Source: Nocardioides sp.
GTDB lineage: Bacteria > Actinomycetota > Actinomycetes > Propionibacteriales > Nocardioidaceae
Assembly (NCBI RefSeq): GCF_036401255.1
Contig: NZ_DASWVI010000147.1
Location: 1 to 60,212 of the forward strand
Direction: 5' to 3'
Length of the DNA stretch: 60,212 nucleotides
Part shown: positions 28,199 to 44,437 of the stretch, in pieces
Layout: each line of letters opens with the position of its first letter
Numbering within the stretch: the first letter of the stretch is position 1
Program-made: the position numbers and the translations under genes
The notes under the pieces: generated by a model
What the model saw: the letters and a program-made list of their open reading frames with translations, nothing else
Databases searched by the model: none
Told to the model about the DNA's origin: nothing

Positions 28199-28237
28199 TC
28201 ACGCGCGTCGCGGGGTCTCGCCGCGGACCGGCGGGGT

Positions 28238-28292
28238 GGGACCGGCGGTAGGACCCAGGGCCCAGGAGGACGGAGCCGCTCGCGCCTAGCGT
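28238..28292 (+). promoter_or_regulatory. Tad-type promoter, copy A
   Basis: GGGACC (28238), AGGACC (28250), GGGCCC (28258), 23-nt gap, TAGCGT (28287), ATG 7 nt later. Confidence 0.55.
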
Positions 28293-28299
28293 GCGCGGC

Positions 28300-28923
28300 A
28301 TGACCAGGCGCGCAACACGCTCTCTCGGCCTCGCCGTCGCGTTGATGGGGATCGGCGTCACCATGGCCGGCTGCGGCCACGAGACCGGCACCGCAGCCGA
28401 CGCCTCCAACACGGTGAGCACCGCCGACTACCTGATCACCTCCGAGGCGCTGCCGCGCGGCTGGGGCGACAGCAACTCCCAGGGCGTCGACTACCGGGTC
28501 AGCGTGTGCGGCGTCGACCTGGAGCCGACGCCACCGGTGCGCGCGACGAGCATCCGGTTCTCCGAGGGCCCACTCGGTCCGTTCCTCGAACAGCACGTCC
28601 GCGTCTACGACTCCGACGTCACGTCCGGGGTGATCGACCGGTTGCGGGAGGCGCTGCCCGGCTGCTCCGCCTACACGGTGACGGGCAGAGGGCCGGACAA
28701 GCCGACCGCGCGCTTCACCGTCGAGCCGCTCACGGTGGACGGTGCACCGGCCGACAGCGTGGCCTGGCGGCAGACTAGCCACGGCAGGCTCCCGGTCACC
28801 TCGGACTTCCTGCTGGTGCGCCGCGGCGACGCCGCGGTCATGCTGATGTCCTACGCCATCCGGCACGATCCCGACCCGCGGGTGCTCGAGCAGGCCGCCG
28901 CGGCCCTCCCCGAGGGGCAGTGA
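28300..28923 (+). CDS. lipoprotein with PknH-extracellular-like (sensor) fold
   Basis: Lipobox TMAGC; two further Cys; GPFLEQHVRVY...DRLREALPGC pattern. Fold call is by eye. Confidence 0.65.
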   Translation: MTRRATRSLGLAVALMGIGVTMAGCGHETGTAADASNTVSTADYLITSEALPRGWGDSNSQGVDYRVSVCGVDLEPTPPVRATSIRFSEGPLGPFLEQHVRVYDSDVTSGVIDRLREALPGCSAYTVTGRGPDKPTARFTVEPLTVDGAPADSVAWRQTSHGRLPVTSDFLLVRRGDAAVMLMSYAIRHDPDPRVLEQAAAALPEGQ

Positions 28924-28924
28924 G

Positions 28925-29986
28925 ATGGCGGCCGTCCGGCGTGACGAGCGCGGCGCGGGCACCGTCGAGTACGTCGGCGCGACGATCGCCGCCGCGATCC
29001 TGGCGCTCGGCGTCCTGGCCACCCCGGCGAGCGGCACGATCTCCAACGCCTTCGCCCAGGCGGTCTGCAGCGTCATCCAGCGCGACGGCTGCGGCGTCAC
29101 ACCGGGGTCCGGTGAGACGCCCCTGGAACAGGCCACGAGCGGTGACTACGTCGCGCTCGGCGACAGCTACTCCTCGGGCGAGGGTGCCTGGGACTACGAG
29201 GACGGAACGGACTTCGACGACCGCGACGACCTGTGGCCCTTCAACGACGACGAGGAGGACCACAACCGCTGCCACCGCTCCGAGAACGCGTACTCGCAGG
29301 TGGTGGCCTCCAGCAACGACTTCGCCGGCGACGTCACGTTCGTCGCCTGCTCGGGCGCCGTGATCACCGACCTCACCCACTCCAACCACGGCAACACCGG
29401 CGAGGACCCCCAGCTCGACGCCCTGGACGAGGATGTCTCGTTGGTGACGATGACGATGGGCGGCAACGACCTCGGCTTCGCCGACGTCGTCAAGGACTGC
29501 ATCATCAACGGCGCGCGCGGGGTGGGGTTCGTCGACAGCTGCCAGGAGAAGCACGACCAGCGCATCGAGGACCTGCTGCCGGAGCTGGAGCAGCGCCTGA
29601 TCGACCAGTACCGGGCGATCAAGGAGAAGGCGCCGAACGCGCGGGTCGTCATCATCGGCTACCCGCAGCTGTTCCCCGAGCACCCCGGCGACGACTACCA
29701 CGACCTGCTCTACAAGGAGGACCAGGTCTGGATGAACGAGAAGGCCGCCGAGCTCAACGCGATGCTGCGCGACGCCGCCCGGCAGGCCGGTGTCGAGTTC
29801 GTCGATCCCACCGACATCTTCCGCGGCCACGGCATCGGCAGCGACGACCCGTGGATCAACGACCTCGACTGGGGCGGGCCGGGACTGATGATCGTCGACC
29901 CGAGCAGCTTCCACCCCAACGCGGCCGGCCACGCGGCCATCGCCCAGCTGATCCAGCAGCAGCTCGAGCACCCCGTGTACCCCTGA
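28925..29986 (+). CDS. Flp-prepilin-fused SGNH/GDSL hydrolase
   Basis: RRDERG|AGTVEY + hydrophobic helix; SGNH blocks GDSYSSG, ACSGA, GGND, FHPN. Confidence 0.88.
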   Translation: MAAVRRDERGAGTVEYVGATIAAAILALGVLATPASGTISNAFAQAVCSVIQRDGCGVTPGSGETPLEQATSGDYVALGDSYSSGEGAWDYEDGTDFDDRDDLWPFNDDEEDHNRCHRSENAYSQVVASSNDFAGDVTFVACSGAVITDLTHSNHGNTGEDPQLDALDEDVSLVTMTMGGNDLGFADVVKDCIINGARGVGFVDSCQEKHDQRIEDLLPELEQRLIDQYRAIKEKAPNARVVIIGYPQLFPEHPGDDYHDLLYKEDQVWMNEKAAELNAMLRDAARQAGVEFVDPTDIFRGHGIGSDDPWINDLDWGGPGLMIVDPSSFHPNAAGHAAIAQLIQQQLEHPVYP

Positions 29987-30030
29987 GCCTGCCCGTGGTT
30001 AGGGTGGCGGCCGTCGACGAGGAGGACCCG

Positions 30031-30306
30031 GTGAGCGCAGGCACGGTACGGACGATGGCCGCGGTGTGCCTGCTCGGCTGTGGGGTCCTCGTGCTCCACG
30101 CGCTGATCCTCGGCATGCACGTCGAGGCGACGCCGCAGGCCCTTGAGGACGCCGACCGCGGGCGCGCTGTCGGCTACCCGGCGGCCGCGGGAGCGGTGGC
30201 GGCCCTCGTGGCGATGGCCGGCGCCGGGCGGCGCTGGGGCACCGGCGCACTCGCGGTCGGCCTGGTCCTCGGGCTCCTCGCCCTGGGCCTCGACGTCCGC
30301 GGCTGA
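30031..30306 (+). CDS. small three-TM membrane protein
   Basis: RBS GAGGAGG, GTG start, three hydrophobic segments. Confidence 0.65.
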   Translation: MSAGTVRTMAAVCLLGCGVLVLHALILGMHVEATPQALEDADRGRAVGYPAAAGAVAALVAMAGAGRRWGTGALAVGLVLGLLALGLDVRG

Positions 30307-30309
30307 TCC

Positions 30310-30345
30310 CCGTTGACCCGCCCGTAACTTTCGGCGGGTCAACGG
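30310..30345. terminator. hairpin between convergent genes
   Basis: 13-bp stem ccgttgacccgcc / ggcgggtcaacgg. Confidence 0.65.
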
Positions 30346-30350
30346 CGCGG

Positions 30351-31354: not shown

Positions 31355-31432
31355 CGGAGGTTTGCCGACCTCGTCACGGTGGCAGGATCCGGGCGTTCTC
31401 GGATCGCACCGGGCCACGGAACAGGAGGCGGA

Positions 31433-31843: not shown

Positions 31844-31884
31844 CGCCCGGCCCGAGGTCGCGGTCGGAGGTGGCCCGGCGCCCT

Positions 31885-31939
31885 GGGCCCGTCGACGGGC
31901 CCGCGGACCTACGGTCACCGCCGGTCGCCGCGGGAGTCT
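31885..31939 (+). promoter_or_regulatory. Tad-type promoter, copy B
   Basis: GGGCCC (31885), GGGCCC (31897), GGACCT (31905), 23-nt gap, GAGTCT (31934). Confidence 0.45.
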
Positions 31940-31999
31940 GACAGCAGCGTGCACGCATGGGTGCCGGGACCGCCCGGCCCGACGGGAGAGGCAGAGGCC

Positions 32000-33385
32000 A
32001 TGCTCGGGGGACACGATCCAGCAAGACGGCGGGAGCGGGGGGCCGCGACCCTCGAGACGACCGGCGTGACGATCATCGCCGCGATGCTCGTGGTCGGACT
32101 GATCGTGTCCGCCACCCCGCAGGCGCGCATCATCGGGGAGACGTTCTCCTACTACGTCTGCCAGGTGGTGACGCTCGGACAGGGTGGTTGCACGCCGCCC
32201 TCCAGCTCGCCCGAGGCCCACAAGCCCACCGACCCGTGCGTGGTGACCCAGGACGGCGTCGAGCGCAACGCGAAGGTCTCGGTGCTGGTCGTCACCGCGT
32301 CCGACGGTCGACGCATCGAGATCCAGCGGCTCAGCAACGGCGAGTACCGCGTCACCGTGACCGACACCGGTGGCGCCGGTGCCGAGGTCGGGGTCGGAGG
32401 CGGGTTGACCGTGACGGTCGCCGACACCACCGTCGGCGGCAGCGCGACCGCCAACGCCGGTGCGTCCTTGGACATCAAGGACGGCGACGTCTACTACACC
32501 GACAAGGACGGCATCGACGACCTGATGAACGCCCTCCTCCAGGACCAGGTCAAGGACGCCACCGTCGGGGACAGCGGGCCCATTCGCTGGGTCACCGACC
32601 AGGCGACCGACCTGGTCGGCATCGGGCACGACCTCCCCGATCCCGACGAGACGTACGCCGAGGGCGGGGTCTCCCTCAACGCCAGCGCCCAGGCGACCGC
32701 ACTGACCGAGAGCGCCAACGCCGGCCTCTCGGAGTCGGCGCTGCTCGGTGTGCGACACAACCGCAACGGCTCGACGACGGTCTACCTCACCACGACGGTC
32801 TCGGGCGAGGCTGGCCTGCAGGGGCTGGGCATCGACACCGAGGGCAACCCCCAGTTCCAGGGCGCGAAGCTGGAGGGCAAGCTCCAGGTCGTCACCGCGG
32901 TCACCCTGGACGCCGAAGGCAACATGACCCAGGTGCAGGCCACCGCCAGTGCCGGCGGCACCTCCACCGGTCTCGCGACCGCCTTGTTCGGCGGCAGCGG
33001 TGACGCCGCCTGGACCAACCAGCAGTCCGGCCTCCACGTCTGGCAGGCGACGCTGCCGATCAAGGACTCCGCCGACCAGACGACGGCCAGTCAGTTCCTG
33101 CTCGCCCAGGGAGTCGGCTCGCTCGGGGCCTGGACCAACCCGCTGCTGGGGACCGCGGCGGCCATCGGCACCCAGAACTTCTTCGACGCCGTGCGCAACC
33201 ACGGCACGCTCACCCAACAGACCTACGACACCAACTCCAGCACCGTCTTCGGGGTCGATGCCGCCCTCGAGTTGGGTGTCGAGGTGGGGGTGTCCGGCAA
33301 CGTCAAGACCGACTCGATGACCACGACCGGCGCGCAATACTGGGACGGCAGCCAGTGGGTCGATTGGGAGGAGTGCGCCGCATGA
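32000..33385 (+). CDS. Flp/TadE-prepilin-fused large beta-rich protein of unknown function
   Basis: RRRERG|AATLE + hydrophobic helix, VCQVVTLGQGGC, Gly/Thr/Ala-rich alternating beta pattern, C-terminal WVDWEEC. Confidence 0.82.
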   Translation: MLGGHDPARRRERGAATLETTGVTIIAAMLVVGLIVSATPQARIIGETFSYYVCQVVTLGQGGCTPPSSSPEAHKPTDPCVVTQDGVERNAKVSVLVVTASDGRRIEIQRLSNGEYRVTVTDTGGAGAEVGVGGGLTVTVADTTVGGSATANAGASLDIKDGDVYYTDKDGIDDLMNALLQDQVKDATVGDSGPIRWVTDQATDLVGIGHDLPDPDETYAEGGVSLNASAQATALTESANAGLSESALLGVRHNRNGSTTVYLTTTVSGEAGLQGLGIDTEGNPQFQGAKLEGKLQVVTAVTLDAEGNMTQVQATASAGGTSTGLATALFGGSGDAAWTNQQSGLHVWQATLPIKDSADQTTASQFLLAQGVGSLGAWTNPLLGTAAAIGTQNFFDAVRNHGTLTQQTYDTNSSTVFGVDAALELGVEVGVSGNVKTDSMTTTGAQYWDGSQWVDWEECAA

Positions 33386-34017
33386 TCCGACGTCTGGCCG
33401 CCGTCTCGGGAGCCCTCACCCTCGCCCTCGCGCTCACGGCGTGCGGGGGCGACGGCGGGGACGAGCCGAAGACGGCCGACGACCCGTACCTGCCGACCGG
33501 GAGCCCGAGCGTGACGGTGACGATGACGAGCCCGCCCGCCGACTACTCGACGGTCAGCGGCGAGGGGTTCTCGATCAGCGCTCCCGGGGAGTTCCAGCAG
33601 CGCCGCCTCACCAGCGCCGACGGCGAGCCGATGCTCGTGCTCGAGAAGCCGTCGTCGATCGAGGCCATCCCCCAGCGCGTCGTGGTGATCCGCGACGTCG
33701 ACCCGCAGCAGTCGGCCGCCGAGCAGTCGTTCGCGCTGGAGTCGGTCAAGGCCGCGGGCGGACCGGCCGGGGACGCCGAGCGCTCCCAGGTCGACGTACC
33801 CGGAGACGCGGGCCCCGCCTTCCTCATCACCTGGAAGGAGGAGCGGCCGGCCGAGGGGGCCTCGACCGTCCAGGTCACCTACTGGCAGCTGATGGAGCAG
33901 GTCGGCAAGGACCTGATCATCAACGTCGTGGCGTTCGCGCCGACCTCCGAGTTCGAGACCTCCGAGGTGAGCAAGATCCTGCGCACGTTCGTCGCCGACG
34001 ACTCGCAGGTCGCATGA
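33382..34017 (+). CDS. lipoprotein (possibly PsbP/LpqN-like fold)
   Basis: Lipobox LALTAC; ATGA coupling; GFSISAPGEF...SKILRTF. Confidence 0.75.
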   Translation: MIRRLAAVSGALTLALALTACGGDGGDEPKTADDPYLPTGSPSVTVTMTSPPADYSTVSGEGFSISAPGEFQQRRLTSADGEPMLVLEKPSSIEAIPQRVVVIRDVDPQQSAAEQSFALESVKAAGGPAGDAERSQVDVPGDAGPAFLITWKEERPAEGASTVQVTYWQLMEQVGKDLIINVVAFAPTSEFETSEVSKILRTFVADDSQVA

Positions 34018-34586
34018 GGCTCAGCTCCGCACAGCGCCAGACCCTCCGGGCCGGCGCGGTCCTGCTGATGCTGTGTGGCGTGGGGCTCGCCGTCTTCGCC
34101 GCGCTCTACAGTCCGCAGTCGACCGGTTCCGGCGACCTGACGGTCGTGGACGACCCGACCTCGTTCAAGCTCCCCGACCCCGGTCTGTTCAGCGGTGAGG
34201 TGATCGTCTACGGCCACGGCACCGGCGAGCAGAGTCCCCAGGACCTCGGCTGCCGGTTGCTCGGACGCTCCGGTGACGAGCAGAGCAGCGCGAAGATGAG
34301 CGAGCTCGCCGTCCTCACGCTCGACCCGGTCACCGTCGACGGCCAGCGCCTGGAGCCGCTCTTCGCGGTGCGCTCCTATCCGCAGGGCGCGACGATCAGC
34401 TGCTCCCAGGGCCAGGCGGCGGCGCCGATCGCGATCACCGACGAGTCGACCTTCGGCCGGCTGGGCACGTTGGTCCGGGTGTTCGCCGGCGGGCTCGCAC
34501 TGGTGTGCGTCGTGGTCGGCGTGACGGTCTGGTTCGCGTTCCGGCCCCCACGTCGCGACCTACCCCGGCAGGCCTTCCCGTCCTGA
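34014..34586 (+). CDS. two-TM membrane protein with two-Cys extracytoplasmic domain
   Basis: ATGA coupling; TM, VIVYG..DLGC..VDG..ATISCS, TM. Confidence 0.7.
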   Translation: MRLSSAQRQTLRAGAVLLMLCGVGLAVFAALYSPQSTGSGDLTVVDDPTSFKLPDPGLFSGEVIVYGHGTGEQSPQDLGCRLLGRSGDEQSSAKMSELAVLTLDPVTVDGQRLEPLFAVRSYPQGATISCSQGQAAAPIAITDESTFGRLGTLVRVFAGGLALVCVVVGVTVWFAFRPPRRDLPRQAFPS

Positions 34587-34601
34587 CCGGTGCACCGCAC
34601 G

Positions 34602-34642
34602 GACATGACGCCCTCCCGGGGTCCCCGGGAGGGCGTCGTGTC
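34602..34642. terminator. hairpin between convergent genes
   Basis: gacatgacgccctcccgggg-t-ccccgggagggcgtcgtgtc. Confidence 0.7.
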
Positions 34643-34669
34643 GGTGCGGCCACCGCTCACTCGATGAGC

Positions 34670-35362
34670 TCAGTCGACCAGGCGGGGCTCCAGGCCGTGG
34701 ACGTCGACGTCGACGAGCGACAGCAGGCCGCTCTCGCCGCCGATGACGAAGTGGGCCACGATCGGTCCGCAGGTCAGCGTGGTCCCGATGTCCGGCGGCG
34801 GAGGCGGCGGCGTCGGGCTCGGCGGCGGCCCGCTCGGATCGTCGTCGGGGGGCTCGGTGGGCGTGGGCGTGGGCGTCGGGCTGGGGCTCGGTGGCGGGTC
34901 GTCCTGCCAGGAGCAGGAGCCGACGTCGAAACCGGTGCTGGCCACGGCGTCTGCGACCGCGGGGCCAACGTCGTCGGAGACGGGCTCGTTCATCTCCACG
35001 GATGCCTCGACCCGGTTGTGAGCGAGGTCGAAGCAGTACGACGTCAGCGAGGCGTCGTTCTTGCCCGCGTAGGTGCTGGCCTGGCTCTGGCCCAGGCCGC
35101 AACCGACCAGGCCCTCGAAGCCGCCCTTCGAGTGCAGCATCCCCAAGATCGCCGGCAGCTCGTCGGCCAGCGCACCCGCTCCGGCGAGCGCAGCGGCGTC
35201 GGCGGCGCTCTGCGCCTGCGACTTCTCGTCGGTGCCGTGACCGAGCGCGGCCACCCCCCACAGCGCGAGCGCGATCAGGAAGGTGGACGCCATGATGATG
35301 ATCGGCGTCGCGATCTGGCCGCGCTCGTCTCGGCGCCGATCACGTGCGTGCGACCGGTTCAT
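34670..35362 (-). CDS. TadG-related pseudopilin
   Basis: RRDERG|QI + hydrophobic helix; AQSAADAAALAGA Tad motif; Pro/Thr linker. Confidence 0.85.
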   Translation of the reverse strand: MNRSHARDRRRDERGQIATPIIIMASTFLIALALWGVAALGHGTDEKSQAQSAADAAALAGAGALADELPAILGMLHSKGGFEGLVGCGLGQSQASTYAGKNDASLTSYCFDLAHNRVEASVEMNEPVSDDVGPAVADAVASTGFDVGSCSWQDDPPPSPSPTPTPTPTEPPDDDPSGPPPSPTPPPPPPDIGTTLTCGPIVAHFVIGGESGLLSLVDVDVHGLEPRLVD

Positions 35363-35406
35363 CGACGAACTCCCCCTGGTGGTCTGGCGACTGGTGGACG
35401 TGGCGA

Positions 35407-35435
35407 ACGCGGGCCCCGGAGTCCGGGGCCCGCGT
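35407..35435 (-). terminator. hairpin downstream of the major pilin gene
   Basis: acgcgggccccgga-g-tccggggcccgcgt. Confidence 0.65.
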
Positions 35436-35457
35436 CAGCGGCGGTGCGGAGCGGAGG

Positions 35458-35670
35458 TCACCCGCCGGTCACGCTGTTCACGGCGGTGGTGAAGACGCCG
35501 CCGAGGTCGATGGCGTCGGCGGCCTGCAGCACCGCGAGGGCGATGCCGGCGGCGACGATGATCATGCCGACGTACTCCAGGGTGCCCTGGCCCTTCTCGT
35601 CGTCGCGGGCCTCGAGCAGGTGGGCCTGGAGCATCAGGTAGGTCATGATGAGCTTCTGCATCTGGATCAT
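35458..35670 (-). CDS. flp: Flp family type IVc major pilin
   Basis: 70 aa; DDEKG|QGTLEY + hydrophobic helix; RBS GAAAGAGG. Confidence 0.88.
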   Translation of the reverse strand: MIQMQKLIMTYLMLQAHLLEARDDEKGQGTLEYVGMIIVAAGIALAVLQAADAIDLGGVFTTAVNSVTGG

Positions 35671-35756
35671 CCTCTTTCACTGTCTCGGCCACGTCCCCCG
35701 TACGGGCCGTAAGCCTGTGTCCTGGATCTGGGTCGCCGTCCCTGACGACACTGTGA

Positions 35757-35847
35757 AATCTAGGTGCGATCGGCCGCCGCGCCGGGGGCCCAGGGGCCCA
35801 TCGTTGGGCCCACTGCCGGGCCCGCCGCTGGGCCTCCTGGTGGGCCC
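35757..35847 (-). promoter_or_regulatory. flp promoter with phased GGGCCC array
   Basis: Hexamers at 35842, 35830, 35818, 35806, 35794 (12-bp period) and 35786; 23-nt gap; TAGATT -10 box at 35762-35757. Confidence 0.7.
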
Positions 35848-35851
35848 AGAC

Positions 35852-36547
35852 TCACTCCAGCTCCCGGGTGCCGAGCCACACGGCGATGGCCTCGCTGCGG
35901 TTGGTGACCACGAGCTTGCCGAAGATCGCGTTCACGTGGTTCTTCACCGTCTTCTCGGCGAGGTAGAGCTCTCGGGCGATCTCGCTGTTGGTCTTGCCCT
36001 GGGCGATCAGCTCCATGAGCTCGACCTGGCGGTCGCTCAGGTCGAACCGCTGCTGCCGGCGCCGACGCTCGACCTCGGGATCCTCCGTCCTCGGTCCGCC
36101 GCGCAGCACCTCGAGCGCCTGGTGGGAGAACGCGCCGGCGCCGAGCGCGGCGCTGCGCACCGTGTGCACGAGCGTGGTGGCGTCGAAGGAGCCGTGGACC
36201 AGGTAGCCGCTCGCGCCGGCGTCGAGCGCGGCTCGGATGTGCTCGGGCTCGTCGGTGAAGGTCAGCATGATCACCGTCGTCTCCGGGGCGATCGCCCGGG
36301 CCGTCTGGACGCCGTCACGCCGAGGCATCCGGACGTCGAGCAGGACCACGTCGGGTCGCAGGCTGTGCACCATCGACTCCGCGAGCACCCCGTCCCCGGC
36401 CTCGCCGACGACCTCCACCAGGTCCGAGGTCTCCAGCAGGCTGCGCAGCCCGGTGCGGACGACGGGGTTGTCGTCGACGACCAGGATGCGCGTCGGCCCC
36501 TCGGCCGGCGTCGGCAGCGGCAGGGTGAGATCCTCGAGGTCAGACAT
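35852..36547 (-). CDS. NarL/FixJ-family response regulator
   Basis: ILVVDD, LLDVRMP receiver; LSDRQVELMELIAQGKTNSEIARELYLAEKTVKNHV LuxR HTH. Confidence 0.93.
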   Translation of the reverse strand: MSDLEDLTLPLPTPAEGPTRILVVDDNPVVRTGLRSLLETSDLVEVVGEAGDGVLAESMVHSLRPDVVLLDVRMPRRDGVQTARAIAPETTVIMLTFTDEPEHIRAALDAGASGYLVHGSFDATTLVHTVRSAALGAGAFSHQALEVLRGGPRTEDPEVERRRRQQRFDLSDRQVELMELIAQGKTNSEIARELYLAEKTVKNHVNAIFGKLVVTNRSEAIAVWLGTRELE

Positions 36548-37715
36548 AGCTCGCCTCCTTCAGGCCCATGAGCGGCGCGACCAGGCGGACGCTCGTCCCG
36601 CGGCCGGACGCGGTCTCGATCTCGGCTCGCCCACCGACCTGGGCCAGGCGCTCGGTGTATCCGCGGACCCCGAAGTGGCCCTCGCGCTCCCGTTCGGGCA
36701 GCACCTCGAGGGAGAACCCGCATCCGTCGTCGGCGATCTCGACGAGCAGGTCGTCGCCATCGCTGCACATCCGGACCGAGAGCCGGTCGGCGCCCGAGTG
36801 CGCCAGCGCGTTGAGGATCGCCTCGCGGGCGGCGGCGAGCAGCTCGTAGCGCACCGACGGCGCCGAGACCGACACCTCCTCGAGGTCGAGCCGCAGGCGT
36901 ACGTCGCGTCCGTGGGTGCAGTCGCGGGCGAGCGCGGCGAGGGACTCGTGGAAGGGCTGGTCGAGGTGGTCTTGCCGCAGGGTCGAGAGCAGCTCTCGGA
37001 GGCGCGCCACCGCGTCGGCCGAGGCCCGGGCGATGTCACCGGCCTCAGCGGCCGCGCGCTGGGGGTCGCGCTGGATCCAGTGCTCCAGGGACTGCGCGGT
37101 CAACGTCAGTCCCTGCAGGGTCTTGGCCGTGGAGTCGTGCAGCTCGCGGGCGAGCCGGGCGCGCTCGGCCGCCGCCGCGGCACCGGACACGAGGTCGGCG
37201 AAGGCACGTTCGGACTGACGCTTGCGTGTCGCGAGCAGCCGGAACACCTGGCCGAGCACGACGACCGACACGAAGGTGATCGGGAAGCCGAAGGCCACGA
37301 GGAAGGAGGAGTCGATCTCGCGGTCGAGCAGGCTCGCGGTCAGATAGCCGCCGACCATCGCGACCGTCGACAGCGCGGCCGGCAGCGGTGGCAGCACGAC
37401 ACCGGTGACGACACAGCTGCTCAGCGCGACCAGGACCAGCGGGTTGTCGGTGCCGAGCGCCACCATCAGCGCGGTCATCACCAGCCCGTCGACCATCACC
37501 AGCAGGGGGTGTCGCTGCAGGAAGTCGGGCACGGAGGGCAGCGAGATGCCGGCCATGCTGCTGAGGGTCAGGAACGCGATGGCCACGATGGCGACGGGCG
37601 AGAGCGTCCTCTCCACGAAGCCGGCGAGGCTGGCCAGCAGCGTCATCATCCGCATCAGGAACGCGACCCGGATCAGGGTCCGGACCTCCATCACGTCGGT
37701 TGCGTCGTCACTCAT
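36540..37715 (-). CDS. membrane sensor histidine kinase (HisKA_3)
   Basis: N-terminal TM helices; ERARLARELHDS; EAILNALAHS, DDGCGF, GHFGVRG. Confidence 0.92.
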   Translation of the reverse strand: MSDDATDVMEVRTLIRVAFLMRMMTLLASLAGFVERTLSPVAIVAIAFLTLSSMAGISLPSVPDFLQRHPLLVMVDGLVMTALMVALGTDNPLVLVALSSCVVTGVVLPPLPAALSTVAMVGGYLTASLLDREIDSSFLVAFGFPITFVSVVVLGQVFRLLATRKRQSERAFADLVSGAAAAAERARLARELHDSTAKTLQGLTLTAQSLEHWIQRDPQRAAAEAGDIARASADAVARLRELLSTLRQDHLDQPFHESLAALARDCTHGRDVRLRLDLEEVSVSAPSVRYELLAAAREAILNALAHSGADRLSVRMCSDGDDLLVEIADDGCGFSLEVLPEREREGHFGVRGYTERLAQVGGRAEIETASGRGTSVRLVAPLMGLKEASYV

Positions 37716-38623
37716 CCCGAGAACCCCCCGAACAGGTTGCCGAAGTCCAGACCCGAGCCCAAGACGATGCCGACGATGAGGATGATCAGCACCGCAGGCA
37801 CCAGCACGATCGTCGTCACGAGCGTGACCCGCGGGGCGACCCGCGCGGCCTTGCGGCGCATCCGTTGGGCGTGCTCGCGGCGCTGGTCGATCGCGATCTG
37901 GTTGAGGGCGTCGACCAGTGGTGCGCCGAGCTCGTCGGACTGCAAGAACGCGGTGACGAACTGGCTCAGCGCCTCGGAGTCGCTGCGCTCGCGCAGCTGC
38001 TCGAACGCCGCCCGCAGCGAGGCGCCGTGCTGGACCTGCCCGAGCGCGTGCTGCATCTCGGCCGCCAGCGGGCCACCGAAGCGCTCTGAGACCCGCATCA
38101 GTGCCGGGCGGAACCCGACGCCGGCGGTGACGGTGACGGCGAGCACGTCGAGGAAGTCGGGCAGGTCGCGGTCGAGGGCCTCGGTGCGCAGGCGGCGCAG
38201 GCGAGAGAGCCGGGAGAGCGGGAACACCACGGGCGCCACCAGGCACAGCACGAGGCCCAAGACGTTGGCCGAGGCGAGGCAGATCAGCGTGGCGGGAGCC
38301 AGGAGGATGACCCAGAGCATGACCCCGCGGATCACGCCGTCGACGCTCAACCCGTCGGGGCGTCCGGCGTAGGCCACCTGGGCCTGCAGCCACTCGACGG
38401 CGCGGTGGGGCAGCCGGCGCCGCACGCGCGGAGCCAGTCGCGTCGCGAGTCGGCCCAACGGCCCCTCGCCGCGTGCCGCGCGACGCTGCTCGGGCCGCAG
38501 CACCATGAGCTCCTCGAGCCCCAGGCCCTCCGCGGCGTCCGCCCGCAGCAGCCGGTAGCCGTGCAGGGCCAGGAGCAGCGCCCCGGCCACGGCCACACCC
38601 GGCAGGTAGATCGTGAGGTTCAT
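37712..38623 (-). CDS. tadC: Tad platform protein TadC (T2SS F family)
   Basis: LDRDLPDFLDVLAVTVTAGVGFRPAL...ELGAPLVDAL; ATGA coupling. Confidence 0.88.
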   Translation of the reverse strand: MNLTIYLPGVAVAGALLLALHGYRLLRADAAEGLGLEELMVLRPEQRRAARGEGPLGRLATRLAPRVRRRLPHRAVEWLQAQVAYAGRPDGLSVDGVIRGVMLWVILLAPATLICLASANVLGLVLCLVAPVVFPLSRLSRLRRLRTEALDRDLPDFLDVLAVTVTAGVGFRPALMRVSERFGGPLAAEMQHALGQVQHGASLRAAFEQLRERSDSEALSQFVTAFLQSDELGAPLVDALNQIAIDQRREHAQRMRRKAARVAPRVTLVTTIVLVPAVLIILIVGIVLGSGLDFGNLFGGFSG

Positions 38624-39540
38624 ATGTCGAACCTCGTCATCTTGCGGATCAGGTAGTAGCCGAGCACGAACAACGAGCCGGCGATGACCAGAGAGATCTG
38701 CCCGACGATCTGCCCGGTCATCGCCTCGACCGACCCGGGCTGGATGGTGTTGAGCATGAACAGCATGCCGACGCCGAGCAGGATGACGAGGTAGCCGGTG
38801 GCCAGGGCCTGGGCGAGCGTGGTCCGGATCTCGCGGCGGGTCTCCTTGCGGGCCTCGAGCGTGTCCGCGATGTCGCGCAGCGAGGTCACCAGCGAGCCGC
38901 CGCTGCGGGAGCAGACCACCAGCGTCGACAGGAGCACCCCGACCTCGCGGGAGGGCAGCCGACTCCCCATGTCGTCGAGCGCGGTCTCCAGATCGGTGCC
39001 GAACCGCAGCGCGTCGGCCACGTGTCGCAGCTCGGTTCCGGCCGGCGCGGCCAGCTCCTCGCCCGCGATCCCGATGGCGGTCGAGATCGACAGGCCCGCG
39101 TTGGTCGCGTTGGCCAGCACGCGGGCGACCTCGGGCATCTGGACGATGAACGCCTCGAGCCGGCGCGCCTTGGCGCGACGGATGTAGGCACGCAGGGCGA
39201 ACCCGCCGATGCTCACGCCCAGGATGCCGAACACCGGCGCCAGGGCGGTCCACAGCAGGTAGGCGGCCAGGAGGCTGACGCCGCTCGCGACCAGGACGAC
39301 GCTGAGCGCACGCTGACGGATGCCGGCCAGGACCAGCTCGCGCTCGACGGCCACGCCGAGCCGAGTACGCCGGAAGCTGCGGTTGAGGCGGTCGAGCAGG
39401 GGCTGGTCCTCGGCCTGGTCGTAGCCGGCGACGGCCGCCGCGATGCGGCGCCGCTCCGTGGCGACCGATGACAGCGACCGCAGGCCGAGCAGACCGAACA
39501 GGACGGCGGCGACCGAGCACAGCAGTGCCGTCACGACCAT
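38620..39540 (-). CDS. tadB: Tad platform protein TadB (T2SS F family)
   Basis: QMPEVARVLANATNAGLS...SGGSLVTSLRDIADTL. Confidence 0.88.
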   Translation of the reverse strand: MVVTALLCSVAAVLFGLLGLRSLSSVATERRRIAAAVAGYDQAEDQPLLDRLNRSFRRTRLGVAVERELVLAGIRQRALSVVLVASGVSLLAAYLLWTALAPVFGILGVSIGGFALRAYIRRAKARRLEAFIVQMPEVARVLANATNAGLSISTAIGIAGEELAAPAGTELRHVADALRFGTDLETALDDMGSRLPSREVGVLLSTLVVCSRSGGSLVTSLRDIADTLEARKETRREIRTTLAQALATGYLVILLGVGMLFMLNTIQPGSVEAMTGQIVGQISLVIAGSLFVLGYYLIRKMTRFDI

Positions 39541-40910
39541 GAGACGCCACCCCCACTGTCCAGACCGGTCAGGCCGTCGGCGGCGTGGAAGCCCGCCGGC
39601 AGCTGCTCGGACCGCTCCTGGAGCCGGGCCACGAGGCGCGGGTGCACGGGGTGGCGGACGAACGCACCGCGCGCGCCTGCCTCTCCGGGCGCGTGCGGGT
39701 CCCAGTGGACGATCCGGCTCAGCTCGAAGTCCTCCCGGCGCCGCGAGGAGAGATAGCTGACCTCGACGACGCGGCGGGTGCCGTCGGCGGACCGCACGAG
39801 CTGCACGACCAGGTCGATCGAGGAGTTCACCTGCTCGCGCAGGGCATGGAAGGGGATCTCCACGTCGGACATCGCCGCCATGGTCTCCATCCGCGACAGG
39901 GCGTCATCGGTGGTGTTGGCGTGCACGGTCGTGAGCGAGCCCTCATGGCCGGTGTTCATCGCCTGGAGCATGTCGAGCGCCTCGCCGCCGCGACACTCGC
40001 CGACGACGATCCGGTCGGGACGCATGCGCAGCGCGTTGCGCACCAGGTCGCGGATGGTCACCTCACCGCGACCCTCGACATTGGCCGGCCGGGTCTCGAG
40101 CTGGACCACGTGCTCCTGCTCCAGCGAGAGCTCGGCCGCGTCCTCGATCGTGACGATGCGCTCCCGGCCCGGGATGAAGGCCGACAGGGCGTTGAGCATC
40201 GTCGTCTTGCCCGAGGCGGTCCCGCCCGAGACGACGATGTTGAGCCGCGCCCGGACCGCGGCCTCGAGTAGCTGGGCGGTCGCCGAGTCGACGGCGCTGC
40301 GCTGGATCAGCTCGTCCATGCCGTAGCGCCGAGGGAACAGCCGGATCGTGACCGTCGGGCCGCGCAGCGCCAACGGCGGGAGCACGACGTTGACGCGTGC
40401 ACCGCGCGGCAGCCGAGAGTCGGGAGGCAGCCGGGCGTCGACCATCGGGCTGGACTCGTCCACGCGGCGGTTCACGGTCGAGACCACCCGGTCGATCGTC
40501 TGCAGCAGCTGCTCGTTGCTGGTGAAGCCCGACGGGATCCGCTCGAGCACGCCGTAGCGCTCGACGTACACGGTGTCGTGCCCGTTGATCATGATCTCGC
40601 TGACCGCCGGGTCGGCGAGGATCGGCTCGAGCACACCGAGACCGACGGCCTCGTCGACCACCCGGCGGACCAGGCTGGTGCGCTCCCGGGTGCTGAGGAT
40701 GATGCCCTCGCGCGAGACCAGGTGGTTGAGCACCCGCTCCAGGCGGGTACGCCGCTGCGCCTCGTCGAGGCGCCCGACCTCGGTCAGGTCGACCTCGTCG
40801 AGCAGCAGGCGCTTGAGGCGCCGCACCAGCAGCTCATCGGAGCTCTCGCTGGCGCCGAGCTCGACGCCGTTGCCCGCGACGCCGGCGAAACCCCGGTAGC
40901 CGCCGCTCAC
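39531..40910 (-). CDS. tadA: Tad assembly ATPase TadA/CpaF
   Basis: [49 protein letters not shown]. Confidence 0.95.
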
Positions 40911-41242
40911 GGCGCCACCGCCATCGCGACCTCGCGCTCGACCGTGAACGCCGGCAGGGGGGCGACCCGCGGCACCTCGACCACGAGCTTCACCGAGTCA
41001 CCCGACACGTCGACGCGGGACACGTGGAGCCCCGCCGGCAGGGCGTCCTCCGCCGCGGCGACGGGGTCGCGTCCGAGGCTCTGGGCGCGCGCGGACTGTC
41101 GTGCCGCCTCCTGGGTCTGCGAAGCGGCCCACCCCGCGACGCCCACCTGGAGGGTGTAGAGCGCGACGAGCACGAGCAGCGGCACCAACGCGACCACCTC
41201 GATGGCGACCGTGCCACGCTCATCACGACGACGGCTGCTCAT
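40907..41242 (-). CDS. TadE-like pseudopilin
   Basis: MSSRRRDERG|TVAIEVVALVP...EAARQSARA. Confidence 0.85.
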   Translation of the reverse strand: MSSRRRDERGTVAIEVVALVPLLVLVALYTLQVGVAGWAASQTQEAARQSARAQSLGRDPVAAAEDALPAGLHVSRVDVSGDSVKLVVEVPRVAPLPAFTVEREVAMAVAP

Positions 41243-42795
41243 GGCTCCTCCACCACCTGCGAGGTCTGGGAGATGTGGCCGGGCAGCTCGGCGCACCCGG
41301 GACAGAGGGCGGGAATGTCCATCGTCACCTTGACCGTCCCGTCGCCGAGCACGCTGACGTGCACCTGGTCCTGGATCGATGCCGGAACGGCGTCGCGGGC
41401 CGCGGCCGCGGGGTCCTCCCCGATCGCCTGGGCTCGCGCCGCGGCGTTGGCGGCATGCCCGTTCCACACGAAGGCCAACGCGGTCAGGCCCACCTGCCAG
41501 GCCAGCAGCACGACGAGGATCACGAGCGGCACGAGGACGACGGTCTCCACCGCGACCTGACCCGTCTCGACGGCGGCGCGACGTGCGCCCCCGCGGCGCC
41601 GTGCCGGAGCGCGGGTCGGCGGCTCCGCGACCGCGACGCCGCTCACCCCGATCTCGGCACCGATCCGCTCCAGGGCCGACCACCAGGCGGCCTCGCGGAC
41701 CTCGCCCGGGTCGCGGGAGTTCACGGCGCGCTCGAGGCGGCGGAAGGTCGCGGGCAGCCGGGTCGAGACGACCTTCGCCGAGGTCAACCGGGCCAGGGCG
41801 TCGGGGTTGAGGACGTCCTCGCGCGAGACCCGGTTGACCAGGACGTTCAGGTCCTGCTCGGCGCTGACGCCCAAGCTCTCCCACGCCTGCACGGTGCGCC
41901 GGAACGACCGCATCGCCAGCACGTCCGGCGTCACGACCGTCACGACCGTGTCCGCCACCTCGACGGCCGCGGCCTGCGCCGGCGTGGCGTGGGAGCCTCC
42001 GTCGACGATGATCACGTCGAACTCCTGGCGCAGCAGGCCGAGGATCGCACGCACGGCGGCAGGGGTGACGTACTCGGTCTCGGCGACCTGCATCGGCGTG
42101 AGCAGCAGGGAGATGCCCGACTCGTGCTGGACCAGCGCGTCCAGGATCGTCGCGGGCGAGAGGTCCTCGGCGACCTTCGCGACGTCGGCGATCGAGACCC
42201 GCTGTCGGGCCTCGAGGATGCTCGAGACGTCACCGGCCTGCAGGTCGAGGTCGACCAGGCAGACCCGCAGACCGGAGACCTTCCGGCGCAGGTCGAGCGC
42301 CATGTGAGTGGCGATCGTGGTCGTCCCCACGCCACCCTTCGCGCCGGCGAACACCGTCACCCGCCCGTGCCGACCGAGCGCCTGGGTGGTGTCGGCGACC
42401 GTGCCGGACAGCAGTCCCCCCATGCGCTCGGACCACTCCCGGGCCGCCTCGTAGCGTCCGAGCAGGTCGTCGAAGGAGATGGGGTAGGAGACGACGCCCT
42501 TGGCGCCGGCCTCCATCGCCTTCAGCGCGCCCTCGACGTCGCCGGAGGAGTTGAGGACGACCACCCCGCTGGCCGGGGAGCGGAACACGATCTCGCGCAC
42601 GACCTCCGGCGCGCTCTGCGGGCCGAGCCGGTCGTGGACGACCACGACGTCCGGCCGGAGCCGGCCCACGGCGGCCGACAGCTCCCCGGTCGACTGCTCG
42701 TAGGTCACCACCTCGGCGCCGTCGATCTCGGCCAACAGGCTGCGGATCTCGCTCTGGACACCCTGGTCGGCCGCGCCGACCACCACCTTGGTCAC
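41239..42795 (-). CDS. TadZ/CpaE (receiver-like + MinD/ParA ATPase) fused to a C-terminal TadE pseudopilin
   Basis: GAKGGVGTTT, LVDLDLQAGD; then RRRGGARRAAVETG|QVAVETVVLVPLVILVVLLAWQV...AANAAARA in the same frame. Confidence 0.85.
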   Translation of the reverse strand: MTKVVVGAADQGVQSEIRSLLAEIDGAEVVTYEQSTGELSAAVGRLRPDVVVVHDRLGPQSAPEVVREIVFRSPASGVVVLNSSGDVEGALKAMEAGAKGVVSYPISFDDLLGRYEAAREWSERMGGLLSGTVADTTQALGRHGRVTVFAGAKGGVGTTTIATHMALDLRRKVSGLRVCLVDLDLQAGDVSSILEARQRVSIADVAKVAEDLSPATILDALVQHESGISLLLTPMQVAETEYVTPAAVRAILGLLRQEFDVIIVDGGSHATPAQAAAVEVADTVVTVVTPDVLAMRSFRRTVQAWESLGVSAEQDLNVLVNRVSREDVLNPDALARLTSAKVVSTRLPATFRRLERAVNSRDPGEVREAAWWSALERIGAEIGVSGVAVAEPPTRAPARRRGGARRAAVETGQVAVETVVLVPLVILVVLLAWQVGLTALAFVWNGHAANAAARAQAIGEDPAAAARDAVPASIQDQVHVSVLGDGTVKVTMDIPALCPGCAELPGHISQTSQVVEEP

Positions 42796-43523
42796 TGTGC
42801 CTCCTCCGGGATCGCCTTGCCGCCGAGGTCGCTCGCGTCGAACTCGTCGACCTCGCGCGACCGGTTGGTGCCCACGTCGCCGGGCAGGGCGACGAGCCGG
42901 ACCTCCTGGGCGAACGCCGCCGCATAGGTCACCGACAGCGCGTCCTCGGGCTCCAGCGCGAGCGTCACCGGGACGACGTCCTTGGTGTTGGCCACGCTGC
43001 CCTCGTCGTCGACCGTGATGGTCTGCTGACCGCCGATCGAGACGATGCGGACGTCGCGCACGAGGACCCGGGCCTGCTTGGGCAGACCCGGCACATCGGC
43101 GAACACCGCGACGATGTCGACCCGGTCGCCCGGGCGGACCCGGCCGGCGACCCCGGTCACGCTGTTGACGTTGATCGCGATCTCACGCTCGGTGGGGCTG
43201 AGGTCCGTCGAAGGGATCAGCATGTCGGAGGTCACCACGGTGCCGGTGGCGAGGGGGAACGACACCCGCCGCCCCTCGAGCTCACGCAGGCTGGTGACCG
43301 CGGTCCGTGCCGCCCAGCGCCGAGGCACCTCGATCGCGTGCAGGTTGGAGGCGCCCAGAGGGCTGTAGGCGTCGACGGGCTTCGCCACCTCGTAGACGGT
43401 GATCCGTGGGCCGACCTGACTGTCGACGTCCTTGACGTAGTTGCTCACTGCGAAGAAGACGGCGAGCGACAAGGCCGCGGCGGCGAGAAGGAACAAGACG
43501 CCGCGACGCTGGCGGGGGTTCAC
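42792..43523 (-). CDS. cpaB: Flp pilus assembly protein CpaB/RcpC
   Basis: N-terminal TM, SAF-like domain, GVAGRVRPGDRVDIVA, VTLALEPEDA. Confidence 0.88.
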   Translation of the reverse strand: MNPRQRRGVLFLLAAAALSLAVFFAVSNYVKDVDSQVGPRITVYEVAKPVDAYSPLGASNLHAIEVPRRWAARTAVTSLRELEGRRVSFPLATGTVVTSDMLIPSTDLSPTEREIAINVNSVTGVAGRVRPGDRVDIVAVFADVPGLPKQARVLVRDVRIVSIGGQQTITVDDEGSVANTKDVVPVTLALEPEDALSVTYAAAFAQEVRLVALPGDVGTNRSREVDEFDASDLGGKAIPEEAQ

Positions 43524-44437
43524 TGGGTGGCTCCTCCGGCGGTGCTGAGCGATGCGAGGTGGGGTGCGGTCGCCGGTGGCGGGGTGCCGGCGGGCTGGGC
43601 GGTCACCGGGACCGCGGGGCCAGGGATCGCGCGGACCCGGCAGAAGGCACAGTCGTGGCCCCAGACGGCCTCATCGCAGATCGGGCAGCGGCCCGTGGCG
43701 GGCGAGAGCTCCGCGACCCCTGGCCACGCGACCACGAACTCGACCGCCTTCGCGGTCCCCCAGACCGGCGTGGGATCACTGGTCGCCTCCCGGCGGACCG
43801 GCCGGCTGGTGAGCCCCATCGAGAAGAGTGTCGCGACGGCGACCTCGGGAAGCTCACCGAAGGCGTGGCAGTCGTAGGCCGTGGCCACCACCCCGCGCGG
43901 GGGCACCCGCGGGAGCTGTCGGTCGGGCGCGAGCTGTCCGATCGGGAGCTTGGCCACCCACCCCGGGTCGCCGTGGACGGCCAGGTAGCCGGACCGGTCC
44001 CGCAGCCAGGAGTGCACGTGCTGGCGCAGGGTCGGCGCCGGGGTGGTCAGCTTGGCGACCGACGGCAGCCAGGCGCCCCAGGTCAGGGCATCGAGCCGGG
44101 CCCGGACGTCGGCGAAGACGGCGTTGGCGCCGTGGACCCGGTCGGGCACCATCTCGACCGCACGCATCATGGCCGTCGTGGAGAACGGCACCGCGACGAC
44201 GCGCACGCTGAGCTCGGGGCGGACCGCAGCGACGGTGGCTGCCGCGACGTGCGCAGGGCCCGACCCAGCCTGCGGGCTGAGGACGAGGAGCTGTCGTGTC
44301 GTAGGCGAGAGCACCGTCTCGTCCGTGGCCAAGGAGGTCGGGTCAGACCACGGATGAACCTGCCACGACCCCCAGGTCGCAGTCCCCCGTGGCCTGGCGA
44401 CCGGGTGCTCCTCGAGGAGCGCAACCGCCAGTGTCAT
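43520..44437 (-). CDS. hypothetical protein with C-terminal zinc ribbon, first gene of the tad operon
   Basis: CPIC-x8-CAFC; GTGA coupling to cpaB. Confidence 0.7.
   Translation of the reverse strand: MTLAVALLEEHPVARPRGTATWGSWQVHPWSDPTSLATDETVLSPTTRQLLVLSPQAGSGPAHVAAATVAAVRPELSVRVVAVPFSTTAMMRAVEMVPDRVHGANAVFADVRARLDALTWGAWLPSVAKLTTPAPTLRQHVHSWLRDRSGYLAVHGDPGWVAKLPIGQLAPDRQLPRVPPRGVVATAYDCHAFGELPEVAVATLFSMGLTSRPVRREATSDPTPVWGTAKAVEFVVAWPGVAELSPATGRCPICDEAVWGHDCAFCRVRAIPGPAVPVTAQPAGTPPPATAPHLASLSTAGGATQ

What the first reader, a model, noticed from the sequence alone, without database searches (positions are those of the whole stretch)
35757..35847. Phased GGGCCC array defines a promoter architecture shared by flp and both cargo cassettes
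Seen: upstream of flp, five hexamers fall at an exact 12-bp period (35842, 35830, 35818, 35806, 35794), a sixth follows 8 bp later (35786), then 23 nt to TAGATT. The same 12/8/23 geometry recurs before 28300 (28238, 28250, 28258, TAGCGT at 28287) and before 32000 (31885, 31897, 31905, GAGTCT at 31934). Inference: binding sites for the adjacent NarL-type regulator, with more sites driving the major pilin. This independently ties the cargo genes to the pilus. Caveat: GGGCCC is common at this GC content, so the spacing is the evidence.
Basis: partly seen in the sequence, partly recalled or inferred. Interest (0 to 1): 0.7.

Follow-up and report, generated by a model that had tools for sequence, protein, structure and literature searches.

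The report
Pilus-regulon promoter switch of actinobacteria
The spaced GGGCCC-type repeats are a real promoter element kept in front of the pilin gene and of pilin-tagged cargo genes in many actinobacteria, and they are likely the docking sites of the neighbouring two-component regulator, which would switch on pilus and cargo together.

Summary
The element is a 14-bp inverted repeat, GGGYCC-NN-GGRCCC, 23-24 nt before a TAnnnT box, with same-direction half-sites every 12 bp upstream. A matrix trained only on other genomes ranks the three sites 1st, 2nd and 8th of 8.9 million positions in this genome. Same-genus relatives keep both cargo sites at the matching genes (6 of 8 and 7 of 8). In 40 Tad loci picked without looking at the motif, 27 of 27 with the NarL-type regulator carry a site, against 1 of 13 without it, although all 13 keep DosR-like regulators (6 independent pairs, sign test p 0.03-0.06). 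The regulator shares DosR's three base-reading residues. Binding and start sites are untested. 'More sites drive the major pilin' is not general: most pilin promoters have 0-1 extra half-site, and the -10 box differs more. The -10 proposed at 31934 is degenerate. The mechanism is of a known kind (DosR/OsdR, ComA, PprAB); my searches found no paper on this regulon. The scan noted the same module before in another genome (e1-5267853).

The parts
35786..35799 (-). Core inverted repeat GGGCCC-CT-GGGCCC (6-2-6), predicted centre -42.5, next to the -35 position of the flp promoter
   Evidence: consensus from 61 anchored relatives
35806..35847 (-). Four upstream half-sites at a 12-bp period (35806, 35818, 35830, 35842), running up to the regulator's stop codon
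   Evidence: orientation of the first upstream half-site from column counts
35757..35762 (-). Predicted -10 box TAGATT, 23 nt after the inverted repeat; predicted start near 35750; no -35 consensus (CCGGCG at 35785-35780)
   Evidence: spacing of 23 or 24 nt in relatives
35458..35670 (-). flp, major Flp-type pilin (start at 35670 or 35661); no Pfam match, assigned from its prepilin-type G/QGTLEY motif and hydrophobic run (motif recalled)
35852..36547 (-). NarL/LuxR-type response regulator, likely binder; K199, K202, N203 align to DosR K179, K182, N183
36540..37712 (-). Membrane sensor histidine kinase (HisKA_3 + HATPase_c), likely cognate kinase
28238..28292 (+). Promoter module of cargo cassette 1: GGGACC, AGGACC-CA-GGGCCC, 23 nt, TAGCGT; the ATG at 28300 follows after 7 nt (predicted leaderless mRNA)
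28300..30306 (+). Cassette 1: lipoprotein-like gene (28300-28923), prepilin-leader GDSL lipase fusion (28925-29986), small membrane protein (30031-30306)
31885..31939 (+). Promoter module of cargo cassette 2: GGGCCC, GGGCCC-GC-GGACCT, 23 nt, degenerate -10 position GAGTCT
32000..34586 (+). Cassette 2: 461-aa prepilin-leader fusion of no known family (32000-33385), lipoprotein-like gene (33382-34017), membrane protein (34014-34586)
37712..44437 (-). Tad assembly genes (cpaB/rcpC, cpaE-tadE, tadE, tadA, tadB, tadC) upstream of the kinase; no copy of the element before them in this genome

Best explanation
The repeats form a conserved promoter element, an inverted repeat GGGYCC-NN-GGRCCC 23-24 nt before a TAnnnT box with same-direction half-sites every 12 bp upstream, that is likely bound by the NarL-type response regulator encoded next to flp, which would activate flp and both cargo cassettes as one regulon. 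Shown: the element, its conservation at matching genes, its loss together with the regulator, and the shared recognition residues. Inferred: the locus kinase phosphorylates the regulator; a dimer sits on the inverted repeat at about -42.5/-43.5, next to a missing -35 box, and recruits the housekeeping-sigma polymerase as DosR does; further protomers load on the 12-bp repeats and tune threshold or timing. Also inferred: flp is strong mainly because of a good -10 box, the large pilin fusions are kept low by a degenerate one, and cassette 1 makes a leaderless mRNA starting at 28300.
For: Conservation: 59 of 73 flp-linked relatives match a loose pattern; columns the pattern did not force are fixed too (third G 61/61, last C 61/61, upstream TT 50/61 and 59/61). 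Ranks 1, 2 and 8 in this genome with a matrix from other genomes. Extra sites in related loci: 54 hits of 8 bits or more in 1.49 Mb (a few are overlapping double counts) against 8 in 4.48 Mb of Markov sequence. Prepilin genes found without the motif: 85 of 89 short pilins (partly the training set) and 15 of 41 long fusions have a site, against 48 of 3000 random windows. Same-genus relatives keep the cassette-1 site in 6 of 8 loci and the cassette-2 geometry in 7 of 8. Start codons lie 6-8 nt after the -10 in 24 of 70 non-flp sites, against 0-4 at each other offset. Co-loss: 27 of 27 against 1 of 13. The regulator was not found in those 13 genomes while 5 of 5 controls were found, and all 13 keep DosR-like regulators. 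Only 3 of 35 LuxR-type helices in this genome have the K..KN triad. DosR reads GGGACT with K179/K182/N183, its box lies at -43.5 in the hspX scaffold, and it contacts sigma-A region 4 (PMC13486717).
Against: There are no binding, reporter or start-site data. The co-loss rests on 6 independent pairs: 5.5 the same way, 0 opposite, p 0.031-0.0625; with the 33 rows where a flp was seen it is 5 pairs, p 0.06-0.125. One locus without the regulator keeps a degenerate site (L135, 12.3 bits). One locus with it has only an 8.2-bit site and no flp seen (L105). L132 (100.0 bits) was moved by hand into the 'with regulator' group, and L114 duplicates a training locus. In 6 of the 13 regulator-less loci no flp was seen in the 9-14 kb fetched. 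26 of 41 long fusions have no site of 8 bits within about 330 nt (6 of these are second genes behind a lipoprotein gene that has one). The 31897 site has no TAnnnT here or in 7 relatives. Two DosR-like paralogues with the same triad exist in this genome, so cross-binding is possible.
Confidence: 0.85

Rival explanations
1. The sites are read by a DosR/OsdR-type regulator encoded elsewhere, not by the adjacent one.
For: The OsdR consensus AGGGCCGATCGGCCCT has the same 6-2-6 shape and GGGCC core (PMC5069765). Two DevR-like proteins with the K..KN helix are in this genome. The cassette-1 left half is GGGACC in relatives, close to DosR's GGGACT.
Against: All 13 genomes that lack the Tad regulator keep a DevR-like gene, yet 12 of their 13 Tad loci have no site. 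The consensus differs from OsdR's at the inner base (C/T against G) and in the TT flank. DevR boxes are tandem dyads 21 bp apart (PMC3177182), not 12-bp half-site repeats.
Confidence: 0.05
2. The adjacent regulator binds, but the upstream 12-bp repeats, or the whole element, dampen or delay transcription instead of strengthening it.
For: In Caulobacter, extra upstream CtrA sites at the Flp-type pilA promoter reduce and delay expression (PMC11264516, abstract only). The number of upstream half-sites varies from 0 to 5 among Flp promoters.
Against: The fixed 23-24 nt distance, the lack of a -35 consensus and the -42.5 position match DosR activation. A pure repressor site would not need this fixed register. 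This rival mostly concerns the upstream repeats, not the core.
Confidence: 0.15
3. The flp element is real but the two cargo copies are chance matches in GC-rich intergenic DNA.
For: Three of the six cargo hexamers are inexact. The 31897 site drops out with a core-only matrix and has no TAnnnT. Other three-hexamer spacings occur 0-10 times in the genome.
Against: Both are kept at the matching genes while the spacers diverge, in 6 of 8 and 7 of 8 same-genus loci. Unrelated pilin fusions in other orders carry the site too.
Confidence: 0.03
4. The array is an RNA structure, a terminator or attenuator behind the regulator gene, and not a protein site.
For: The flp-strand array folds at -50 kcal/mol, z -3.0, and begins 5 nt after the regulator's stop codon.
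Against: A self-complementary hexamer folds whatever its role. What relatives keep is position relative to the -10 box, not pairing. The element recurs at cargo promoters far from the regulator gene and is lost with the regulator. The nearby true hairpin after flp looks different, a 14-pair stem.
Confidence: 0.02

Closest known systems
DosR/DevR box of Mycobacterium tuberculosis (PMC13486717: abstract, passages, section 6; PMC3177182: passages)
   Same: NarL-family regulator with the same base-reading residues (K179/K182/N183 = K199/K202/N203). GGG-led hexamer half-sites in a palindrome centred at -42.5/-43.5 before a weak -35 and a good -10. Several sites per promoter.
   Different: Half-site GGGYCC against GGGACT. 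Extra sites are single half-sites in direct repeat every 12 bp, not whole boxes 21 bp apart (-42.5 and -63.5). The regulator is only a distant relative of DevR (E 1e-26, against 1e-69 for this genome's DevR-like protein). The targets are pilus genes.
OsdR (SCO0204) of Streptomyces coelicolor (PMC5069765: passages)
   Same: 6-2-6 palindrome with GGGCC core (AGGGCCGATCGGCCCT).
   Different: Inner base G against C/T, A against TT flank; a DevR orthologue with a stress regulon. DevR-like genes remain in genomes that have lost this element.
ComA of Bacillus subtilis (PMC4797271: passages)
   Same: NarL-family activator using one hexamer in both an inverted and a direct repeat at the same promoter.
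   Different: ComA has TTGCGG, an inverted repeat with a 4-nt spacer upstream and a direct repeat with a 5-nt spacer (11-bp period) downstream. Here the order is reversed, with 2-nt and 6-nt spacers and up to five repeats.
PprA-PprB and the flp/tad locus of Pseudomonas aeruginosa (PMC6821963: passages; family and locus position of PprB recalled)
   Same: A two-component system that directly controls the Flp pilin, with further surface genes in its regulon.
   Different: Putative site GGCTAATAC, unrelated to this one. PprB also controls the tad assembly locus, whereas no site lies before the assembly genes in this window (a few relatives have one).
CtrA sites at pilA of Caulobacter crescentus (PMC11264516: abstract only)
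   Same: Several regulator sites stacked upstream of an Flp-type pilin promoter, the proximal one at the -35 position.
   Different: A global cell-cycle regulator of another family (family recalled); its upstream sites repress and delay.

Membership tests
NarL/LuxR-family activator site next to -35 (DosR type) | Cognate protein has receiver + GerE/LuxR HTH domains | tested here: met
   PF00072 and PF00196 over cut-off
NarL/LuxR-family activator site next to -35 (DosR type) | Recognition helix carries K179/K182/N183 equivalents | tested here: met
   Query 7-59 aligns to DevR 149-201, an offset of 20; K199, K202, N203; DevR helix shown; residues named
NarL/LuxR-family activator site next to -35 (DosR type) | Hexamer inverted repeat centred about -42.5/-43.5 from the start site | tested here: inconclusive
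   Centre is -42.5 if TAGATT is -12..-7; the start site is predicted, supported only by the 6-8 nt start-codon peak
NarL/LuxR-family activator site next to -35 (DosR type) | Direct, phosphorylation-dependent binding and activation | not testable with these tools
   Needs EMSA, footprinting, reporters
DosR/OsdR regulon (Dev box) | Half-site GGGACT or consensus AGGGCCGATCGGCCCT | tested here: not met
   Consensus here is TT-GGGYCC-NN-GGRCCC
DosR/OsdR regulon (Dev box) | Tandem whole boxes about 21 bp apart | tested here: not met
   Upstream unit is a half-site at 12 bp in most loci; some relatives show extra sites at about 24-25 bp instead
DosR/OsdR regulon (Dev box) | Site occurs with a DevR orthologue | tested here: not met
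   13 of 13 genomes keep DevR-like genes, 12 of 13 lack the site at the Tad locus
ComA-type inverted plus direct repeat promoter | Same hexamer in inverted and direct repeat at one promoter | tested here: met
   First upstream half-site has left-half polarity: preceding T 42/61, GGG 48-50/61, Y 45/61, A at third place 1/61
ComA-type inverted plus direct repeat promoter | TTGCGG element, 4-nt and 5-nt spacers, direct repeat promoter-proximal | tested here: not met
Tad/Flp pilus locus | cpaB/rcpC, cpaE/tadZ, tadA, tadB, tadC, tadE, TadG-like, prepilin peptidase, Flp | tested here: met
   Pfam RcpC, ParA-type ATPase with receiver, T2SSE, two T2SSF, TadE, Tad, Peptidase_A24; Flp assigned by motif only, no Pfam hit

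The most novel reading that the evidence does not exclude
The element marks a regulon spread across Actinomycetota in which one two-component system switches on a Tad pilus together with interchangeable pilin-tagged effectors (lipase, metallopeptidase-like, HINT-processed deaminase toxin) and their lipoprotein partners: a pilus-borne polymorphic weapon system. The regulator polymerises head-to-tail along 12-bp repeats from a -35-proximal dimer, and degenerate -10 boxes set effector-to-pilin stoichiometry.
Probability: 0.3. Interest if true: 0.75.

Novelty: new variant of a known kind. Interest (0 to 1): 0.5.

Why it matters
This Tad locus is widespread: its TadA clade was found in 61 of 61 genomes sampled from the genus of a Streptomyces locus and in several other actinobacterial families. 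My searches found no paper on its control (most subscription journals are not in the library). The element gives a predicted binding site, start sites and a target list, so the regulator, the unknown inducing signal and the role of these pili become testable with a reporter or a phosphomimetic allele. It also works as a tag for finding pilus cargo: in relatives it precedes extra pilins, TadG-like genes and large pilin fusions, and some fusions in these loci carry pretoxin-HINT or toxin-deaminase domains. S. coelicolor appears to lack the kinase-regulator pair at this locus (inferred), which may be why the regulon was overlooked. The activation mechanism itself is of a familiar kind.

Tried and rejected
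No RNA holder was listed for 28000-36600; this says nothing either way. The sigma-70 consensus scan found 0 promoters in 27900-36000; it needs a -35 match and does not suit these promoters. Supplement searches for pilus terms or motif strings in two Streptomyces start-site papers (PMC8079986, PMC8780764) gave no hits. The S. coelicolor start-site table lists positions without sequence and the strain seems to lack the regulator, so no published start site could be tested. PMC2000904 (passages) and PMC8467076 (passages, Micrococcus tad loci) say nothing on this element. The original PprB paper is not held. The GGGCCC pair at 35411/35426 is not part of the element: it is a 14-pair hairpin after flp (-35 kcal/mol, z -5.2). 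Five other contigs of this genome with T2SSE-family matches have no site (best -5.5 bits), nor do 20 of 20 loci of a second TadA clade. The 32000 cargo protein stayed unassigned: no Pfam or NCBIfam family, no PDB sequence match, a low-confidence model (pLDDT 55.7) and no fold match at E <= 0.001; the protein atlas gave no answer. A look for a change in the regulator's helix matching the GAG...CTC variant of the site in Solirubrobacterales-type loci showed no clear change (those loci were retrieved with a KTVKNH pattern, so the test is weak). A first, narrow count of NarL helices (8) was replaced by a profile search (35).

Full report
1. Observation. Eight of 12 hexamers are exact GGGCCC; the others are GGGCCT (35830), GGGACC (28238), AGGACC (28250) and GGACCT (31905). 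GGGCCC is rarer than chance in the window, 31 against 58 +/- 7. The flp array is the only cluster of four or more within 60 bp in the 4.43-Mb, 72% GC genome. A pattern fitted to the three sites finds only those three in the genome, but other spacings average 1.5 hits, so spacing alone proves little.

2. Setting. The window holds a Tad/Flp locus on the minus strand: cpaB, cpaE-tadE, tadE, tadA, tadB, tadC, a HisKA_3 kinase (36540-37712), a receiver-GerE regulator (35852-36547), flp (35458-35670) and a TadG-like gene. The closest named homologues of the regulator are from Nocardioides. On the plus strand lie two cassettes. The first is a lipoprotein-like gene (28300), a prepilin-leader GDSL lipase (28925) and a small membrane gene. 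The second is a 461-aa prepilin-leader protein (32000), a lipoprotein-like gene and a membrane gene.

3. Conservation. Of these 82, 73 have an flp-like gene just downstream, and 59 of 73 match a loose pattern with a 22-24 nt gap to TAnnnT; most misses are degenerate versions. After dropping one duplicate, 61 anchored promoters give the consensus (T-GGGYCC)-N4-TT-GGGYCC-NN-GGRCCC-W, then 23 or 24 nt, then TA(C/G)NGT. Columns the pattern did not force are fixed as well. The core is an inverted repeat. The first upstream half-site has the polarity of the left half, so the 12-bp array is a direct repeat ending in a dyad. Record titles span Nocardioides, Cellulomonas, Janibacter, Actinomadura, Nocardiopsis, Streptomyces, Euzebya and Solirubrobacterales.

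4. Are the cargo copies real? A matrix from 45 non-redundant promoters of other genomes ranks flp 1st, 28250 2nd and 31897 8th among 8.86 million positions. With a core-only matrix 31897 is not among the 68 hits listed, so it is the weakest site. In eight same-genus loci (L007, L087-L093) the cassette-1 site stands before the matching lipoprotein gene in six; none was listed in L092 or L093. The cassette-2 geometry stands before the matching fusion in seven, one of which scores under the threshold. Across the 80 loci there are 54 further hits of 8 bits or more in 1.49 Mb (a few double-counted) against 8 in 4.48 Mb of Markov control. Among prepilin genes found without reference to the motif, 85 of 89 short pilins (partly the training set), 0 of 5 mid-length TadE-type genes and 15 of 41 long fusions have a site, against 48 of 3000 random windows. 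Six of the fusions without one are second genes behind a lipoprotein gene that has it.

5. Is TAnnnT the -10? Among 70 sites not at flp, a start codon of a long reading frame lies 6, 7 or 8 nt after the hexamer in 9, 12 and 3 cases, against 0-4 at any other offset up to 40 (several are kin). That is the pattern expected of leaderless mRNAs. TANNNT is the usual -10 and 21% of primary starts are leaderless in S. coelicolor (PMC4895711, passages). In this window ATG 28300 follows TAGCGT by 7 nt, as in all six relatives. At cassette 2 the -10 position is degenerate here and in seven relatives, so that start site is uncertain. With TAGATT at -12..-7 the dyad centre is -42.5, and the -35 position reads CCGGCG.

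6. Which protein binds? DosR reads GGGACT through K179, K182 and N183; its box sits at -43.5 in the hspX scaffold, before a poor -35 and a good -10, and it contacts sigma-A region 4 and the alpha subunit (PMC13486717: abstract, passages, section 6). The regulator here aligns to DevR with an offset of 20 and has K199, K202 and N203, invariant in 32 aligned relatives. Only 3 of 35 LuxR-type helices in the genome have this triad: this protein and two DevR-like ones. To separate them I picked loci by TadA alone. Of 40 loci in the same TadA clade, 27 have the regulator (26 above 100 bits, L132 at 100.0 added by hand), and all 27 have a site of 8 bits or more; L105's is weak and not at a flp, and L114 duplicates a training locus. 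Of 13 without it, one has a site (L135, degenerate, 12.3 bits); the six other flp promoters seen score -15 to -20, and in six loci no flp was seen. The regulator was not found in any of the 13 genomes at E <= 1e-40, while 5 of 5 controls were found. All 13 keep DevR-like genes. Presence of the regulator changes at least six times on the TadA tree. Over six independent pairs the site goes the same way in 5.5 and never the opposite way, p 0.031-0.0625; the stricter set of five pairs cannot reach 0.05. Twenty loci of another TadA clade have no site. This is strong but indirect support for the adjacent regulator.

7. Counting unbroken 12-bp half-sites upstream of the dyad (at most one mismatch), 86 Flp promoters have 0 (35), 1 (38), 2 (6), 3 (4), 4 (2) or 5 (1), and 17 fusion promoters have 0 (7) or 1 (10). 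The four-site array here is an extreme, not the mark of a major pilin. TAnnnT is present in 79 of 86 Flp promoters (partly by construction) and 6 of 17 fusion promoters. Extra sites need not add strength: at Caulobacter pilA they delay expression (PMC11264516, abstract only).

8. Mechanism. Shown: the element, its geometry, its conservation, its co-loss with the regulator and the shared recognition residues. Inferred: the kinase phosphorylates the regulator; a dimer binds the dyad next to the -35 position and recruits polymerase as DosR does; further protomers occupy the 12-bp repeats and tune the response; flp, cassette 1 (leaderless) and cassette 2 (weak -10) are switched on together. No site precedes the assembly genes in this genome, though a few relatives have one there. 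The signal is unknown. Confidence 0.85 that the adjacent regulator binds the core and activates.

9. Known systems. It works like a DosR/OsdR promoter but is not a Dev box: the half-site, the arrangement of extra sites and the co-occurrence all differ (PMC3177182 and PMC5069765, passages). The mix of inverted and direct repeats recalls ComA, with other sequence, spacers and order (PMC4797271, passages). A two-component system controlling an Flp pilin is known from Pseudomonas PprAB (PMC6821963, passages). Six searches aimed at this locus or its control returned nothing on it; the library lacks most subscription papers. An earlier, unchecked report of this scan describes the same module in another genome (e1-5267853). 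I saw it after my own tests and do not count it as evidence.

10. Verdict. A real, widely conserved promoter element that defines a small pilus-and-cargo regulon; a new variant of a known kind of switch. The cargo is the more surprising part: some fusions in related loci carry pretoxin-HINT or deaminase domains, while the one at 32000 has no assignable family. Interest 0.5.

Noticed in passing
window 35400-35445: Strong hairpin (14 pairs, -35.2 kcal/mol, z -5.2) between flp and the TadG-like gene, containing the GGGCCC pair at 35411/35426; likely a terminator or mRNA-stabilising stem.
   Followed up: partly
L067:16199-17845(-), L027:14542-16026(+), L027:12695-14194(-), L069:16733-17578(+), L071:17949-18791(+), L081:19109-20527(+): Prepilin-leader fusions in related loci carry pretoxin-HINT, toxin-deaminase, metallopeptidase-like or alpha/beta-hydrolase domains. 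Of 41 fusions, 26 were scanned and 8 had a Pfam match (one more than those listed plus the GDSL lipase was a weak RodZ_C hit). They look like polymorphic effectors on a pilin leader.
   Followed up: partly
window 31934-31939 and L007, L087-L091, L093: The -10 position of the cassette-2 promoter is never TAnnnT but always ends in CT (GAGTCT, TTGTCT x3, TTGACT x2, TTGGCT, GATCCT): a deliberately weak box or another sigma factor.
   Followed up: partly
L042, L047, L054, L056, L058: Solirubrobacterales-type loci use a symmetric variant, GAGYCY-NN-GGRCTC, next to the -10, often with a GGGCCC-type repeat about 23-24 bp upstream.
   Followed up: partly
L008: The regulator lies 6.8 kb from flp, yet flp keeps a 29.7-bit site.
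   Followed up: no
L017, L046, L047, L058, L097: Duplicated flp genes each carry their own copy of the promoter module.
   Followed up: no
genus sample of this genome: The regulator was found in only 7 of 400 sampled same-genus genomes (only 7 candidates scored per genome), so the locus looks patchy in this genus.
   Followed up: no
window about 30351-31354 (-): Prepilin peptidase (A24) and an upstream small gene that looks like DUF192 (label recalled, not scanned) sit between the two cargo cassettes on the opposite strand, with no copy of the element.
   Followed up: no
window 41239-42795 (-): The CpaE/TadZ-like ATPase is fused to a C-terminal TadE-like domain.
   Followed up: no
genome contigs C359:3751, C307:2951, C421:4134, C281:3056: Similar 6-2-6 boxes of the GGGACC/GGTCCC type, some 24 nt before TAnnnT, probably sites of the DevR-like paralogues.
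   Followed up: no
S. coelicolor SCO5006-SCO5015 (literature only): About 2.1 kb separates SCO5009 from SCO5012 and no kinase-regulator pair is tabulated there, suggesting the model strain lacks the pair; orthology was not checked by sequence.
   Followed up: partly
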